DNA of 64,000 nucleotides from Raja brachyura (lineage: Eukaryota): contig OY740794.1 in the NCBI GenBank assembly GCA_963514005.1, positions 41,974,001-42,038,000 on the forward strand, read 5' to 3'. Made by a program: the position numbers. Within the stretch, counting starts at the first letter, position 1, and the number at the start of each line of letters is the position of its first letter. Below, piece by piece: positions 30,001 to 39,000 of the stretch.

Positions 30001-33000
30001 TTATAGAGCCTCAGCATTGCAACCCCATTTTTGAAAACGAGCTCTCTCAAAATAAATGCTAGCATTGCATTTCCTTTCTTTACTACCAATTGGACTTGCA
30101 GATTATCTTTTGGGGAATCCTACACCAGCACTCCCAAGTCTCTTTGCACCTCTGATTTCTAGATTCTCTCCCCATTTATAAAATAATCTATGTCTTTAAT
30201 CCTACTATCCAAACAAATACTAATCATAATGTTCTCAATTGTTACTATGACTGTCAATATAGTATCATTAATCCCCCTTGAGTGGAACTTCCATTCAACA
30301 ATGCATTTCAACCTCTTCATTCTCCAACTCCTGCTCATAGATAATGCCCAATCATCCCTTGCCTCCTGGCTTCAAAGACGAAGAGGAACTATATCTTTGT
30401 TCAAGAAGGAACTGCAGATGCTGGAAAATCGAAGGTAGACAAATGTGCTGGAGAAACTCAGCGGGTGCGGCAGCATCTAAGGAGCAAAGGAAATAGGCAA
30501 CGTTTTGGGCCGAAACCCTTCTTCAGACTTCTTCAGAACTATATCTTTGTCAGAAGTCACCATCTTCAGCATCTCAAACCCCAATGCAATATTCCTTATC
30601 CTGTGGCAATTGAACCATTGACCTCATCTCATAGAGGTACATAAGATCATGAGATAATTAGATAGGGTAAATACCCAGAGTAGAGTAGGGGAATCAGGAA
30701 CTAGAGGACATAGATTGAGGTGAGGGAGGAAAGATTTAAATGGGACTTAAGGAGCAACGTTTTTGTAGTTATGTGGAAAGGGCTGCCAGAGGAGTTAGTT
30801 GAGGCAGGTATTATCACAATGTTCAAGAGACATTTTGACAGGTACATGGATAGGAAAGGTTTAGAGGGACATGGACCATACGCAGGCAGGTGGGATAGTG
30901 TAGATGGGGTATCTTGGTTAGTGTAGGGTTGGGTCTAAGGCCTGATTCCACGCGGTATGACTCTAATGCTCTATGACACCATGACCTGAATGAACATTTT
31001 GGGACTGTTACCTCTCATAACTTTGATGTGAAAAGCAGAATAAATTTGATTTAAAACCTGAGCTCTGTTTCTCTTTCTATAGATGTTGCCCGACTTGCTG
31101 AAAATTGGACCATTGTGGTCTCCATCTTTCCTTGATCATTGCTACTGGCTTTAATCTGTCTTTTTACAAATCTTTCATGAATTGTTCTATGTACCTCTTT
31201 CTTATCTCTCGTTCCCCTCTCCCCTGACTCTCAGTCCGAAGAAGGGTCTCTACCCAAAACTTCACATATTCCTTTTCTCCAGAGATGCTGCCTGACCCGC
31301 TGATGTACTCCAGCTTTTTGTGTCTACAGTGTAAACCAGCATCCACAATTCCTTCCTACACATCAGTGATCTCATGTGGACAAAGTCAGCACACACATTC
31401 TGTCTTCCTGCACCCATTCCTCCATTTACCACATCCTCATCACCAGTCAGCTAATTGAGAGATAGGTGTCCTGATGAACATTAAGAGGTCCTACTTGGAT
31501 TTACGACTCAGATATTCCAAAATTCACATTCATGTCACACCCTACACACATTTTACTTCGGAGTCACGTGAGTGACTACGTGAAGAAGACCCCGCCTGGC
31601 GCTGGAACGGCATTACGTCGACGCTATCGGCAAAGGAAGAGCTGCAGAGCGCAGCTCCAGCACAGCGGTAAGGAAACGGCCCGCAGGTAAGTAAAATTAT
31701 TTTACTTCCAGGGCGTTTTCTTAAAACTCCGTAGGCTGGTAGGAAACCAGCAGGAGTTTAAATAAAAATAAAAATTAAAAATGTTTAAAAAAAAAAAAAT
31801 CGCGGGTAAAACGTGCGTCCCGGGGTGTAAAAAGTCGGGACAGCAGACTATTGCGGAGCCGGTTCCGATACCGGTGGCCGATTGAAATACCCATTAGGGA
31901 GCCTTTAGTTGCTCCACAAACAAAACTTGAAAACCCAGTGCCTAAAAAGTAAAAAGAGGCTTGAAAGGCCTGAGGTTTCTAAAAGATCCTGTAAGGTAAG
32001 CCTAAAATTGGCTAAGTATGGATCTAATGGAGGAAATACTCCAAATTATATCAACCAAGGGTCTAAGTACCCAGAATATTCCCAGGCAGCCCCTGAGGGG
32101 GTTCCATATCGTGAATATGGTGCCAATTCGAATTGGGAATTTGAAACCCCAGTGCCTGGGTATGGACTGGAGGAAGTCTCCTTGAACGAGTTTCAGGAGT
32201 ACCAGGGCTGTATGAGACAGACCCTGAAAGTGGTGTTTGTGGTCAGAAGTACCCACCACAATGCAAATCCAGGTGTGTCTGAGGGGCACAAAGTTACTAT
32301 ACCTGGTGGAGGCGGTGAGGCCATGGAAGGAACCTGGCGGCCAATGTTAATTATATGGTCTCTCACCTGCCTCAAGAAGCTGTTATGGTTGAAACAGCAG
32401 ATTTGCATTTAAACATGTGCTCGCTTCGGCAGCACATATACTAAAATTGGAATAATACAGAATATAAGAAACATTAGGATGCGCAAGGATGACGCAAATG
32501 CATGAAGCATTCTAAAACACCTTTAAGAAGGTACCTGGTAATCCGGGTTTTGGGCGCCAATGTCAGCAATTATGCGGGCGCAGGAATTACGATTAAAAGA
32601 ATCCTCAAACTAATTGGCATCACTGTCTTTTAAGACAAGCTGGGAAGTTGTGGAATGACTAAAGTTCAGAATGAAACAAAATATGTTAGGTTTATTCTGC
32701 AAACTCATTTGAGTTAAATTATATAAATGGAAGATTGCCATTCGGCCTCTTTTACATCCAAAGATTTACAGGACAAGCAATGTTCAAACTCCTGGTTATT
32801 GATTCGGAGAAAATCTGTTTAAGCAAATTAAGTATGGATGAAGGGGAAGAAACCCTTCAGTTGGCCAGTAGGCTGGTCGTATGGAAAAGGGATTTGATTT
32901 GAGCCGAGGCAGGAGTATGATAAGGAAGAATTTCCAGCCAGCAAATCGCTTCTTGGCTTTTTGGCTAAGATTAAGCATGGTATCTGTTCTTATCAGTTTA

Positions 33001-36000: not shown

Positions 36001-39000
36001 TTGAAGGACTTATTACATAAATTGTAACAATGTCCTAAAAATACTATTTACTCACTACTGTTTTGACTAAACAGAGTCGTATGAAATGAATTTACGACAT
36101 GAAAGACACAGAGCTTCAAAATCTTCACGTAGCCACTCACGTGACTCCGAAGTAAAATAGTGAGATTAAACGAGAACTTACCAGTTCGAAGTTTGATCTT
36201 TATTTTATGAGGAGTTACGATGAGGGATTACGTGCCCTCCACTCCCAACCCTCATAATGTAAATGATCATCTGGTAGTTCTAGTCTATTTTGAGCCTTAC
36301 TATTTTACTTCGGCTATTGGTTTCTGTGTTTTTCATGCCGCTGCTTTGAAGTATGCCGTTCCAGCGCCAGGCGGGGTCTTCTTCACGTAATCCCTCATCG
36401 TAACTCCTCATAAAATAAAGATCAAACTTCGAACTGGTAAGTTCTCGTTTAATCTCACTATTTATACTTCCAGACATCCCAATATACAATCTCATACTCA
36501 CAAAGTAACAGATTGGTTTCAATACTAGCCTGCTAGCTGAAGTCCTAGATAATAATCTGGGAAATTGGGTTCAAATCACACTAAGAAGGACGACTTTAAT
36601 TAATTTAATTGAACAATTTCAAATTAAAAAGGCCAAAATCAGTAATAATGGCAATTAAATAGCTAGATTGCTGCAAAACCCATTTGGTTTCATCATAGAT
36701 TTTGAGAAAGAACATGTACCATCCTTGCCCGCTGTGGTCTTGACTCTTGTCTCATAGGCCTTAATTGAAGGTGAATGGCCATGCAGTTCAAGTTAATTAG
36801 TCATCAGTAATAATTACATTTGCTTGAAATGCCTTAGCCCAAGAACATCACTGAGCTAAACACTGTGTCTCCCCAACATGTAATTCAGCAGATGCAGAAA
36901 CCTTTTTCCACCTGTGACAAGTAGTTTTTGTAATCCATTTTCTGTCCATGGTGAATGTTTGTTATGGTTAACAGGAGTTTGCAATGGGCAGTAATATCTG
37001 CTGAATCAATTGAAAGTTGTTTAGTGTCTTGAGTTACAACCTGAGAGCAAAGTATGCAAGTTCTTTCACAGCCTTATTGTGCCTTTTAGATAATGAAACA
37101 TCTTTACAAAGTCGAGAGATGTGTTCCTTGCTGTAGAATGCTAGAGTTGTTCAATGGCTTGTAGGAGGGAATGTTATGCTTTACCCGTATCCCATCTCTG
37201 ACTTTTCTCAGATAGGCACAGATACAAAATAAAACAGCTCATAGATGAGTGGTGAGTCCATTGAACAAGTCGGTTTATTAGCAATGTACATTGGGAAGCA
37301 GTGAGAGCAAGCCCAAGCTGCTTCAAAATCCCACAGTAGCTGTAGGATTCTTATACCCTCATGACACAATCGTTACCTATGGAGTTGAAATAAACAATCA
37401 TTAATCAATGTCTCCCCAAAGTTATCTTGCGTTTCCTGTTGTTTAGTAATCTCCCTCCCATATATCTAACATGTAGATATCATAAATGTCCAAATTCTCC
37501 TCGCCAAATGGAGTCCCCTCATAAAAGACATTGTTTGTTAACCTTTGGGAGACTTGCTTGCTAAACACAGTGACCAAGAGCAGCTGTAATGCAAGATTGC
37601 AACAGATAAGAACCTAGATAGGACTACAAAGGACTAGTCTGAAGAAGGGTCTCGACCCGAAACGTCACCCATTTCCTTCGCTCCTTAGATGCTGCTGCAC
37701 CCGCTGAGTTTCTCCAGCTTTTTGTGTAACCCTACAAAGGACTATCTGCCCCCTACTGATAAGAAAGCCTGCTTCTCAGCAGAATGTTTCAGCTTTAGCT
37801 ATTTTAACTACATTCTATCTTGGCTATTTTCCCATCATGCTCCCCAGTATGTGAGCTCCAGGGTTAATCAAACTATAACCTATTAATCTTCCTTATAATT
37901 CTCAAAATTCCAGATAACATAGCAAGACAACGTCAGCTATCAGTGAGTTGTGAGATCTGACACATTGCTAGTCTGGACTGGATAATGGTAATGTTTAATG
38001 GTTAAACTTTGTCTTATTGGAAATGGTTTTTGCAAGACACTTGTGAGGCACAAATCAACCTCCCCCTCCATTGACTCAATTTATACCTCACGCTGCCTCG
38101 GTAAAGCCAGCAGCATAATCAAGGACGAGTCGCACCCTGGCCACCCCGTCTTCTCACTCTCCCGTCAGGCAAAAGATATAGAAGTGTGAAAACACTCACC
38201 TCCAGATTCAGGGACTGTTCCTTCCCAACTATATCAGGCAACTGAATCATCCTATCGCAACCAGAGAACAGTGCTGAACTACTATCTACCTCTTTCGTGA
38301 CCCTTGGACTATCCTTGATCAGACTTTGCTGGCTTTACCTTGCACTAAACGTTATTCCCTTATCATGTATCTATACACTGTAATTGGCTCGATTGTAATC
38401 ATGTATTATCTTTCTGCTGACTGGATAGCACACAACAAAAGCTTTTCACTGTACCTCAGTACACGTGACAATAAACTAAACTGATGATAAATTACTGCTT
38501 ATTTACTGCATCTTCAGTAGTTGGCATTGTCTCCCTGGATATGGGCATCTGTGATCAGATTTTGCTGACTGCACTGTCTTCCTTCACCTTATCCTACTGA
38601 CCATGTGCAGCAGGCAAGATCTATGGTCATTTCATAGTAGGGTAGCAGGTGGCTGGGCAGGAATTACCATAACACAGCAGTTAAGCTACTGACCTAATAA
38701 TCTAAAATCTGTGACTAATCATCTGGACATGAATTTGAAAATTACTGTGGCACCTGGGAATTTTAAAATCAGTTAATTAAATAAATCTGGACAAAAATGG
38801 TGATCATGGAATTTTCAGACTGTTGTAAAAAAAAACATCTGCTTCATTAATGCTTTTTATGGAAGGACATTTACGTGGTCTGACTTATATGTGATCGTCG
38901 TCCCAAAGACTGTGATTAACCCTTCATTGCTCTCTTAAGTGGGACAACAATCACTTAGTTCAGGGCAATAAAGATTTGGCAATAACTGCAGGCCTTATCA

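What the first reader, a model, noticed from the sequence alone, without database searches (positions are those of the whole stretch)
31551..36463. DIRS with pristine replication signals, dead ORFs and U6 cargo: a possible trans-mobilised U6-carrying non-autonomous lineage
Seen: the 37-bp ITRs match perfectly. The right half of the ICR matches the 3' terminus perfectly over ~80 bp and the left half matches the 5' terminus with 1 mismatch in 36. Yet gag, RT, RNase H, MT and YR are broken by many stops and frameshifts. Known: DIRS replication needs these ITR/ICR pairings in cis and copies termini from them. Inference: the copy moved recently using proteins supplied in trans, after coding decay and U6 capture, so a DIRS would be acting as a vehicle for an snRNA-derived sequence.
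Basis: partly seen in the sequence, partly recalled or inferred. Interest (0 to 1): 0.68.

Follow-up and report, generated by a model that had tools for sequence, protein, structure and literature searches.

The report
Dead DIRS retrotransposon with snRNA inserts
This is a coding-dead copy of a DIRS-type retrotransposon whose replication signals are still almost perfect and whose gag region carries decayed pieces of two spliceosomal RNAs (U6 and U2), which suggests, but does not prove, that it was copied recently with proteins borrowed from other elements.

Summary
Window 31551-36463 (+) has full DIRS1-like anatomy: inverted terminal repeats, a two-part internal complementary region (ICR) and a right extension. 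Of 154 paired cis positions, 153 match. gag and all four pol domains are wrecked: on the best frameshift-aware paths pol has about 20-35 frameshifts and 8-14 stops. The same method found none on an open control ORF. The "U6" is a decayed, whole-length U6-like copy just below Rfam's threshold (40.8 vs 44 bits). Both start at the snRNA's first base, lie in sense, and are flanked by colinear gag sequence. This fits reverse-transcriptase template switching. In-place decay cannot explain dead genes beside pristine signals (P about 3e-6 at 5% decay). An older DIRS copy in the same window shows that these signals do decay (88-90%). Recent copying of an already dead RNA in trans is the best reading (about 0.6). 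The copy census and read check could not be done. Non-autonomous DIRS (TOC1) and snRNA/LINE chimeras are already known, so interest is moderate.

The parts
31551..36463 (+). Whole DIRS1-like element. The end bounds are ambiguous by the 4 nt shared by both termini; 31550 also pairs with the ICR.
   Evidence: Inverted repeats I1-I3; protein homology on the + strand only.
31551..31613 (+). Left end. The 5' terminus 31550/31551-31586 is complementary to the ICR left half. The ITR core 31577-31613 is a perfect inverted repeat of 36353-36389.
   Evidence: 36/37 and 37/37; CpG o/e 1.24.
31614..32008 (+). 5' untranslated region. It is not CpG-depleted (o/e 1.11; host flanks 0.26-0.30).
   Evidence: No protein or Rfam match there.
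32009..33252 (+). gag / pre-RT remnant, broken. On the best paths it has 12 frameshifts and 3 stops in the three alignable stretches, plus two snRNA-derived insertions.
   Evidence: Against P0121: 109/138 identical, 6 frameshifts, 0 stops, z = 83. Against the pre-RT ORF of window copy 1: 42/96 identical, 5 frameshifts, 2 stops (z 16-28), and 14/31 identical, 1 frameshift, 1 stop (z 12.8). Against P0009 residues 194-230: z 6.
32417..32524 (+). U6-like segment. It spans the whole length of the model (positions 1-105), lies in sense and is decayed. Its conserved central part is scrambled; its 5' stem-loop and a 3' block are intact.
   Evidence: Rfam RF00026: 40.8 bits (gathering 44), E = 7e-8. 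The gag homology to P0121 ends at 32419.
32945..33062 (+). U2-like segment. Only model positions 1 to about 103 are really present (to about 33045). It lies in sense and its 3' half is absent.
   Evidence: Rfam RF00004: 88.1 bits (gathering 46), E = 4e-16. Element sequence lies on both sides.
33246..33999 (+). Reverse transcriptase remnant, broken. It has 13-16 frameshifts and 5-6 stops against its closest relative P0003 (that alignment runs on to 34110/34272), 8-14 frameshifts and 6 stops against P0008, and 7 and 7 against P0079.
   Evidence: Whole P0003: 268/332 identical.
34000..34446 (+). RNase H remnant, broken: 3 frameshifts and 0-1 stop.
   Evidence: P0008, P0079.
34447..34916 (+). Dam-like methyltransferase remnant, broken: 4-6 frameshifts and 0-2 stops.
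   Evidence: The domain was placed from Pfam PF05869 in references P0079, P0042 and P0057.
34910..35826 (+). Tyrosine recombinase remnant, broken: 4-9 frameshifts and 2-4 stops.
   Evidence: P0009, P0081, P0079. The references carry PF00589/PF13495.
35827..36121 (+). 3' untranslated stretch between the recombinase remnant and the ICR.
   Evidence: No protein match. 30% GC.
36122..36234 (+). Internal complementary region. The left half is 36122-36158 and the right half 36155-36234. They overlap by 4 nt, which is the circle junction.
   Evidence: CpG o/e 1.6.
36235..36352 (+). Spacer between the ICR and the right ITR. It forms the loop of the 3' hairpin.
36353..36463 (+). Right end. The ITR core is 36353-36389. 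The 3' terminus with the right extension, 36384-36463, is complementary to the ICR right half.
   Evidence: 80/80. The last ~85 nt are about 93% alike in all three DIRS copies of the window.

Best explanation
This is a DIRS1-like tyrosine-recombinase retrotransposon copy that can no longer encode any of its proteins but keeps every cis signal the DIRS replication scheme needs. The most likely history has three steps. (1) In an ancestor, reverse transcriptase copying the element's RNA switched template onto U6 and, separately, onto U2 snRNA, ran to their 5' ends and switched back. This left a whole U6 and the 5' half of U2 inside gag. (2) That already crippled lineage went on decaying. (3) Recently an RNA of this dead form was reverse-transcribed, had its ends rebuilt from its own ICR and right ITR, was circularised and was recombined into this site. 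All of that used gag, RT/RNase H and recombinase made by other DIRS copies. Shown here: the anatomy, the near-perfect pairings, the counts of breaks, the identity, orientation, precise 5' ends and flanks of the snRNA pieces, and the fact that an older copy nearby has let its pairings decay. Inferred: template switching as the way of capture, the order of events, and supply of proteins in trans.
For: Of 154 paired cis positions, 153 match. The ICR is essential, the ends are rebuilt from it, and RT acted in trans on a truncated construct in Dictyostelium DIRS-1 (PMC7192593, passages). Break counts on the best paths are: RT 13-16 frameshifts and 5-6 stops; RNase H 3 and 0-1; methyltransferase 4-6 and 0-2; recombinase 4-9 and 2-4; gag 12 and 3, plus two inserts. 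Method controls gave 0 frameshifts and 0 stops in 6 of 6 runs on an open ORF of copy 1, and 2 frameshifts and 1 stop in the RT of copy 2. In-place decay of 5% per lineage would give about 15 mismatches in the pairings, and P(<=1) is about 3e-6. The six stops in the 332 codons aligned to P0003 suggest about 5-30% decay; this is my inference, taking about 4% of random changes to make a stop. Copy 1 (1-1559) has the same kind of hairpin at only 88-90%. CpG is kept in the ends, 5' UTR and ICR (o/e 1.1-1.6) but not in gag or pol (0.22, 0.37) or the host flanks (0.26-0.30). The snRNA pieces start at model position 1, lie in sense and are decayed. Colinear gag sequence lies on both sides of each. Copies 1 and 2 have no such pieces. 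The only database homologue of the gag piece, P0121, ends its ORF 5 residues after the point where the target enters U6, whereas the homologous ORF runs on in P0009 and in copy 1. This hints that the relative has the same interruption.
Against: Only this one locus was seen, and no census of the source genome was possible. None of the 3 DIRS copies in the window is intact, so no protein donor is shown. The one close relative (P0121 and P0003, 79% and 81% identical along frameshift-aware paths) does not share all lesions: the target needs 6 and 16 frameshifts to follow it. Its DNA could not be read, so a shared U6 is unproven. The search with the ORF that spans the U2 junction found 2 proteins, and both match the U2-derived part only. 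Gene conversion between the paired stretches, or errors in the assembly of the interior (there is a 31-nt G run inside pol), are not excluded. Full trans-complementation of a DIRS cycle has not been shown in the paper I read; only RT acting in trans was shown.
Confidence: 0.6

Rival explanations
1. This is an old insertion that decayed where it lies. The paired signals stayed identical because inverted repeats within one element correct each other, by gene conversion or hairpin-templated repair.
For: The ICR right half and the 3' terminus form a perfect 80-bp stem with a loop of 149 nt. Close palindromes are known to homogenise (general knowledge).
Against: The pairs that lie 4.5-4.7 kb apart and are only 37 nt long also match, at 73 of 74 positions. 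Copy 1 in the same window has the same hairpin at 88-90% with an 8-nt gap. The CpG-rich 5' UTR of 395 nt has no partner to convert from, yet it is not CpG-depleted.
Confidence: 0.12
2. This is a recombinant: fresh ends (5' end with UTR, and ICR with 3' end) from an active element joined to a dead interior. The join arose either by RT switching between two co-packaged RNAs or by ectopic conversion from a young copy. The first route is still mobilisation of a dead RNA in trans.
For: There is a sharp contrast in CpG o/e between the ends with UTR (1.1-1.6) and the interior (0.22-0.37). The same element shows signs of template switching in its snRNA pieces.
Against: No donor was seen. Selection on cis signals within a non-autonomous lineage produces the same pattern. 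The last ~85 nt are conserved across three otherwise 64-78% alike copies, which shows constraint rather than recent exchange.
Confidence: 0.15
3. The interior lesions are errors of assembly or polishing in a repeated family, and the real copy is intact or nearly so.
For: There is a 31-nt G run with one A inside pol. Frameshift density is very high, about 1 per 55-65 nt in RT.
Against: Other repeats in the same window read cleanly: copy 1 has an open stretch that aligns with 0 frameshifts, and copy 2's RT has only 2. Besides frameshifts there are stops, two snRNA inserts and 19-21% amino-acid difference from the closest relative. By my inference from general rates, the ratio of indels to substitutions is about what neutral decay gives.
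Confidence: 0.07
4. This concerns the way of capture only. The U6 and U2 pieces are ordinary snRNA retropseudogenes that a LINE machinery inserted into a genomic DIRS copy, which was later transcribed and copied. They are not products of switching by the RT that was copying DIRS RNA.
For: LINE remnants with endonuclease and esterase ORFs are in the window. LINEs of the L1, L2 and RTE clades make U6 pseudogenes (PMC4476161, passages).
Against: No LINE tail, poly(A) or recognisable target-site duplication adjoins either piece. According to that paper, L2/RTE-type LINEs make only chimeras with a LINE tail. The U2 piece has a complete 5' end and lacks its 3' half, the reverse of what priming at the snRNA's 3' end gives and the pattern reported for internal template switching.
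Confidence: 0.2

Closest known systems
DIRS-1 of Dictyostelium discoideum and animal DIRS1-like elements (PMC7192593, PMC3266345; passages read)
   Same: Non-identical ITRs. An ICR whose two halves are complementary to the outer ends and overlap at a short circle junction. A right extension. The gene set gag, RT-RNase H-methyltransferase and tyrosine recombinase.
   Different: All genes are broken here. The overlap is 4 nt against the 3 bp described. The order is pol then recombinase, as in the animal relatives P0079 and P0009, not as in DIRS-1 itself. There are two snRNA pieces in gag.
TOC1 of Chlamydomonas reinhardtii, called a non-autonomous DIRS retrotransposon (PMC9940879, one passage read; details of TOC1 recalled, not checked)
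   Same: A DIRS-order element without working genes that changes copy number, so it must use proteins from elsewhere.
   Different: TOC1's mobility rests on observed copy-number change. Here mobility is inferred from one copy. The host here is animal-like, TOC1 is not reported there to carry snRNA pieces, and no sequence comparison was made.
U6/LINE chimeric retrocopies and tripartite chimeras made by template switching (PMC4476161, passages; PMC2104539 and PMC11838501, listing and start of abstract only)
   Same: A whole U6 in sense joined at its 3' end to retroelement sequence. The snRNA 5' end is exact. There is a 3'-truncated snRNA, as with internal switching. A double switch is needed, as in tripartite chimeras.
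   Different: The partner is a DIRS element, not a LINE. The snRNA pieces are internal, with element sequence on both sides. There is no target-site duplication or LINE cleavage site. The product kept its replication signals and seems to have been copied again.
LARD/TRIM-type non-autonomous LTR elements and snRNA-headed SINEs (SINEU) (recalled, no call)
   Same: Parasitic derivatives that keep cis signals and borrow proteins. SINEU shows that snRNA-derived modules can ride in retroelements.
   Different: Here the coding region is decayed rather than deleted. The snRNA pieces are internal, not a promoter-bearing head.

Membership tests
DIRS1-like retrotransposons (order DIRS) | Inverted terminal repeats | tested here: met
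   37/37 core and 43/45 wider arms.
DIRS1-like retrotransposons (order DIRS) | [quoted passage not shown] | tested here: met
   36/37 and 80/80. The halves overlap by 4 nt, against 3 bp in PMC3266345.
DIRS1-like retrotransposons (order DIRS) | RT, RNase H, Dam-like methyltransferase and tyrosine recombinase homology in one orientation | tested here: met
   As remnants only. 103 of 120 DIRS-like proteins hit 33246-35826 on the + strand. Pfam on 20 of the target's own open stretches found no RT, methyltransferase or integrase family.
DIRS1-like retrotransposons (order DIRS) | Coding capacity (autonomy) | tested here: not met
   Every gene is broken.
Non-autonomous element mobilised in trans | Intact cis signals with dead genes | tested here: met
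Non-autonomous element mobilised in trans | Several copies at different loci that share the same lesions and inserts | not testable with these tools
   No eukaryotic genome collection is on hand. The protein database holds one close relative only. Copies 1 and 2 of the window are 64-78% alike and lack the inserts.
Non-autonomous element mobilised in trans | An intact partner with matching termini in the same genome | tested here: inconclusive
   0 of 3 DIRS copies in the 64-kb window are intact. The rest of the genome was not seen.
snRNA chimeras made by RT template switching | The snRNA piece starts at the mature 5' end, lies in sense with the retroelement, and has a variable 3' entry point | tested here: met
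   Both pieces start at model position 1. U6 runs to position 105 and U2 to about 103 of 192. That model position 1 is the mature 5' end is recalled.
snRNA chimeras made by RT template switching | LINE hallmarks: target-site duplication, endonuclease site, LINE 3' part or poly(A) | tested here: not met
   None was seen beside either piece on reading. This is therefore not a LINE-type chimera.
Working U6 / U2 snRNA genes | Reaches Rfam's gathering score over the full model, with the conserved core intact | tested here: not met
   U6 scores 40.8, below 44, with its central conserved block scrambled. U2 passes the score but lacks its 3' half and has 3 changes in an invariant stretch. Upstream of each is gag sequence, not a promoter region.

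The most novel reading that the evidence does not exclude
A long-lived parasitic DIRS lineage in an animal genome has gone through several rounds of copying in trans. In these rounds the DIRS reverse-transcription complex repeatedly sampled spliceosomal snRNAs by double template switches. Two independent snRNA pieces within 650 nt would then be a sign that U6 and U2 are regular companions of DIRS RNA in that complex. The retained modules might even help the dead RNA, for example in nuclear handling or packaging, much as snRNA-derived heads serve some SINEs.
Probability: 0.12. Interest if true: 0.7.

Novelty: new variant of a known kind. Interest (0 to 1): 0.4.

Why it matters
If this reading is right, tyrosine-recombinase retrotransposons in animals have the same kind of protein-borrowing parasites as LTR elements and LINEs. 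The ICR/terminus pairing would then serve as a built-in clock for dating single DIRS insertions without a second copy. The snRNA pieces would be the first sign I could find that a DIRS reverse transcriptase switches templates onto cellular small RNAs. In three literature searches (listings only) I found no paper on this. On the practical side, U2 and U6 hits in genome annotation can be transposon-borne pseudogenes. For a specialist this is a tidy single example rather than a surprise, because non-autonomous DIRS (TOC1) and snRNA/LINE chimeras are both in print.

Tried and rejected
- **Pfam on the target's own open stretches:** 20 stretches gave no relevant family, so domain placement had to come from related proteins.
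- **tblastx and blastn of the target's 5' part against copy 2's 5' part:** nothing significant.
- **N-terminal parts of P0057 and P0042 against the gag region:** no signal (z 0.5 and -0.4).
- **U2-junction ORF against 1.84 billion representatives:** this 63-residue ORF found only 2 proteins, both matching the U2-derived part in several stretches. They are probably translated U2 repeats. No relative with the junction was found.
- **P0003 against the protein database:** the other 119 listed proteins are at most 65% identical and cover 61-95% of it, so no family of near-identical copies turned up.
- **ESM Atlas with P0121:** no usable hit.
- **tRNA search:** none found.
- **Weak Rfam matches in the element** (a lncRNA family on the G run, a trypanosomatid snoRNA) are chance.
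- **Rejected: snRNA genes captured as DNA.** Both pieces start at the RNA's first base and have gag sequence directly upstream.
- **Rejected: one nested U6-to-U2 composite insert.** The 420 nt between the two pieces is homologous to the pre-RT ORF of copy 1.
- **Rejected: capture of a paired U2/U6 duplex in one step,** for the same reason.
- **Rejected: editing-type hypermutation of the interior.** It cannot make frameshifts.
- **Human origin:** nothing in the window made me take it for human sequence.

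
Full report
**1. What is there**

Window 31551-36463 (+) has the complete anatomy of a DIRS1-like retrotransposon. The repeat finder and a direct check give four pairings:
- ITR core 31577-31613 against 36353-36389: 37 of 37 positions match.
- Wider ITR arms 31569-31613 against 36353-36397: 43 of 45.
- 5' terminus 31550-31586 against ICR left half 36122-36158: 36 of 37.
- 3' terminus 36384-36463 against ICR right half 36155-36234: 80 of 80.

The two ICR halves overlap by 4 nt. 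This corresponds to the short circle junction described for the family (3 bp in PMC3266345, passages). The part of the right end beyond the ITR corresponds to the right extension described there. Over all three pairings, 153 of 154 distinct paired positions match. Folded as single-stranded DNA, 36100-36470 gives -106 kcal/mol, z = -20.8, and 0 of 100 shuffles fold as well.

**2. The genes**

Pfam found nothing relevant in 20 of the target's own open stretches. I therefore fetched DIRS-like proteins, using the RT ORF of another DIRS copy in the window as query (120 listed). The references include P0009 (Holothuria leucospilota; RT plus integrase domains) and P0079 (Mytilus edulis; RT, Dam-like methyltransferase, integrase). 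By tblastn, 103 of the 120 proteins match the target. All matches are on the + strand, within 33246-35826, and spread over 2-3 frames.

I then wrote a protein-versus-DNA alignment that allows frame changes and reports only score, counts and outer bounds. Counts on the best paths, at frameshift penalties 12 and 20, are below.

| Region | Reference | Frameshifts | Stops |
|---|---|---|---|
| RT | P0003 | 16 / 13 | 5-6 |
| RT | P0008 | 14 / 8 | 6 |
| RT | P0079 | 7 | 7 |
| RNase H | P0008, P0079 | 3 | 0-1 |
| Methyltransferase | P0008, P0079 | 4-6 | 0-2 |
| Recombinase | P0009, P0081, P0079 | 4-9 | 2-4 |

P0003 is the closest relative; over its whole length 268 of 332 aligned residues are identical to the target. 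Independent of any reference, the pol remnant has 45, 44 and 34 stops in its three forward frames, and its longest open stretch is 109 codons.

Controls for the method:
- On an open ORF of copy 1, three references at two penalties gave 0 frameshifts and 0 stops in 6 of 6 runs.
- On the RT of copy 2 it gave 2 frameshifts and 1 stop.

The gag side was judged from three comparisons:
- The 167-codon open stretch in gag has one homologue in the protein database, P0121, 162 aa (1 hit among 12 candidates).
- Along a frame-aware path, 109 of 138 positions are identical to P0121, with 6 frameshifts and no stop (z = 83).
- Further downstream, the pre-RT ORF of window copy 1 aligns to 32572-32863 (42 of 96 identical, 5 frameshifts, 2 stops, z 16-28) and to 33146-33252 (14 of 31 identical, 1 frameshift, 1 stop, z 12.8).

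**3. The snRNA pieces**

- **U2.** Rfam at gathering thresholds finds one hit in the whole window: U2 at 32945-33062 (+), 88.1 bits against 46. Only model positions 1 to about 103 of 192 are really aligned.
- **U6.** Its 5' stem-loop and a 3' block match the conserved consensus positions, but the conserved centre is scrambled.
- **Decay.** The U2 piece has 3 changes in a stretch the model shows as invariant. Neither piece is a working snRNA gene.
- **Orientation and ends.** Both pieces lie in the sense of the element, and both begin at model position 1.
- **Flanks of U6.** Homology to P0121 runs up to 32419, 3 nt into the U6-like piece. P0009 residues 194-230 align just upstream of it (z 6).
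- **Between the pieces.** The 420 nt between the two pieces, and the stretch after U2, are homologous and colinear with the pre-RT ORF of copy 1. That ORF is continuous with P0009 residues 245-559.
- **Conclusion on structure.** These are two separate inserts in a reading frame that is uninterrupted in relatives. They are not one composite insert and not captured gene DNA.
- **Other copies.** Copies 1 and 2 of the window have no such pieces, as far as they lie in the window. The part of copy 1 that would correspond to the U6 site lies just beyond the start of the window.

**4. How the inserts probably arose (inference)**

Each piece has an exact snRNA 5' end, lies in sense, and has a 3' border that is the full end for U6 and internal for U2. 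This is the signature described for template switching by LINE reverse transcriptases. According to PMC4476161 (passages), those produce whole U6 in U6/LINE chimeras, 3'-truncated U5 and U3 by internal entry, and tripartite chimeras by double switching.

Here the sequence on both sides is DIRS sequence. So the enzyme that switched was copying DIRS RNA, and it had to switch back. No LINE tail, poly(A) or recognisable duplicated flank adjoins either piece. That argues against ordinary LINE-made retropseudogenes, although after this much decay short duplications would be hard to see.

**5. Dead genes beside pristine signals**

In the DIRS scheme the ends are rebuilt at each cycle from the right ITR and the ICR. 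The ICR is essential, and RT acted in trans on a truncated construct in Dictyostelium (PMC7192593, passages). The pairings are therefore perfect at insertion and then act as a clock.

- One mismatch in 154 pairs means very little time at this site.
- With in-place decay of 2%, 5% or 10% per lineage, P(<=1 mismatch) is 0.015, 3e-6 or 1e-12.
- The interior looks far older. The six stops in 332 codons against P0003 suggest roughly 5-30% substitution (my estimate, taking about 4% of random changes to make a stop). The frameshift density points the same way.
- The snRNA inserts are themselves decayed.
- A control lies in the same window. Copy 1 (1-1559) has the same hairpin at 88-90%, with a gap, so this genome does not keep such pairings perfect.
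- CpG tells the same story. Observed/expected is 1.1-1.6 in the ends, the 5' UTR and the ICR. It is 0.22 in gag, 0.37 in pol and 0.26-0.30 in the flanks.
- The last ~85 nt are about 93% alike in three copies that are otherwise 64-78% alike. This shows constraint on that signal.

The simplest reading is that an RNA that was already dead and already carried the inserts was copied recently, with proteins from elsewhere.

**6. What weakens this reading**

- I saw one locus.
- The protein database holds one close relative only. P0121 and P0003 both come from an unnamed 11,957-nt contig or from contigs of that same length. The other 119 listed proteins are at most 65% identical to P0003 and cover 61-95% of it.
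- That relative is less broken than the target, so the two do not share all lesions.
- Two hints suggest the relative belongs to the same crippled lineage. P0121's ORF ends 5 residues after the point where the target enters U6, whereas the ORF continues in P0009 and in copy 1. P0003 is only 344 aa, whereas related RT-RNase H-methyltransferase ORFs exceed 600 aa. Without its DNA these remain hints.
- The search with the ORF spanning the U2 border found only 2 proteins, both matching the U2 part alone.
- No intact DIRS copy is in the window. Copy 1 goes from the start of RT straight to its ICR. Copy 2 (about 9750-13476) lacks the methyltransferase, the recombinase and most of the ICR.
- Assembly error in the interior cannot be excluded without reads. 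A 31-nt G run inside pol looks odd. Against this, other repeats in the window read cleanly.
- Gene conversion is unlikely for the short, distant pairs, but it is not excluded.

**7. Comparison with what is known**

By anatomy and gene remnants this is a member of the DIRS1-like group. It fails only the autonomy criterion.
- Non-autonomous DIRS elements are in print: TOC1 of Chlamydomonas is called a non-autonomous DIRS retrotransposon (PMC9940879, passage).
- Degenerate DIRS families are common in Xenopus (PMC9210276, passages).
- DIRS elements make up a quarter of a caecilian genome (PMC8498967, passages).
- snRNA chimeras are known for LINEs (PMC4476161).
- I found no paper on snRNA pieces inside a DIRS element. 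One search found 27 papers holding all terms, of which 12 were listed and none was on this. One search found 8 papers, all LINE or general. One search found 1 paper. I read listings only.
- Work on retroviral packaging of snRNAs and on snRNA-headed SINEs is recalled, not checked.

**8. Verdict**

Recent copying of a dead, insert-bearing RNA in trans is the best explanation, at about 0.6. A multi-copy lineage is unshown.

The host is unknown. CpG depletion and the repeat content look like an animal genome, possibly vertebrate. Nothing made me take the window for human sequence. The N run at 56629-56811 was left alone.

Novelty: a new variant of a known kind. Interest: 0.4.

Noticed in passing
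window 1-1559 (+): Another DIRS-like copy, cut by the window start. It has an open stretch homologous to P0009 residues 245-559 (pre-RT plus the start of RT) and then jumps straight to an ICR and right end. It is therefore an internal-deletion derivative. Its ICR/terminus arms are only 88-90% complementary.
   Followed up: partly
window about 9750-13476 (+): A third DIRS-like copy in a 52% GC block. It has a nearly intact RT ORF (Pfam RVT_1, 1.4e-16) but lacks the methyltransferase, the recombinase and most of the ICR. Its 5' end was not found.
   Followed up: partly
within the pol remnant, window 33246-35826: A 31-nt run of G with a single A. It gave a chance Rfam match to a lncRNA family on the minus strand. 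It could be natural slippage or a sequencing or polishing artefact.
   Followed up: no
window 36464-36470: The first bases of the 3' flank repeat the element's own 5' start, with one extra base, so the hairpin pairing runs about 6 nt on into the flank. This fits recombination into a site that resembles the circle junction. Copies 1 and 2 do not show it, and it could be chance (roughly 1 in 1000).
   Followed up: partly
window 31161-31362: A short interspersed repeat of about 90-170 nt lies just upstream of the element. It has at least 8 other copies in the window at 75-90% identity, on both strands.
   Followed up: no
window 48559-49884 (-) and 20915-21382 (+): LINE remnants: ORFs with an endonuclease/exonuclease/phosphatase domain and a GDSL-type esterase domain, and an ORF with an ALKBH8_N-like match.
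   Followed up: no
window 8038-8809: Several imperfect inverted repeats of 50-54 nt (78-81%) lie in a GC-rich stretch upstream of copy 2. Their nature is unknown.
   Followed up: no
window 31760-31800: An A-rich tract, including a run of 13 A, lies inside the CpG-rich 5' UTR of the element. Its meaning is unknown.
   Followed up: no
   Followed up: no
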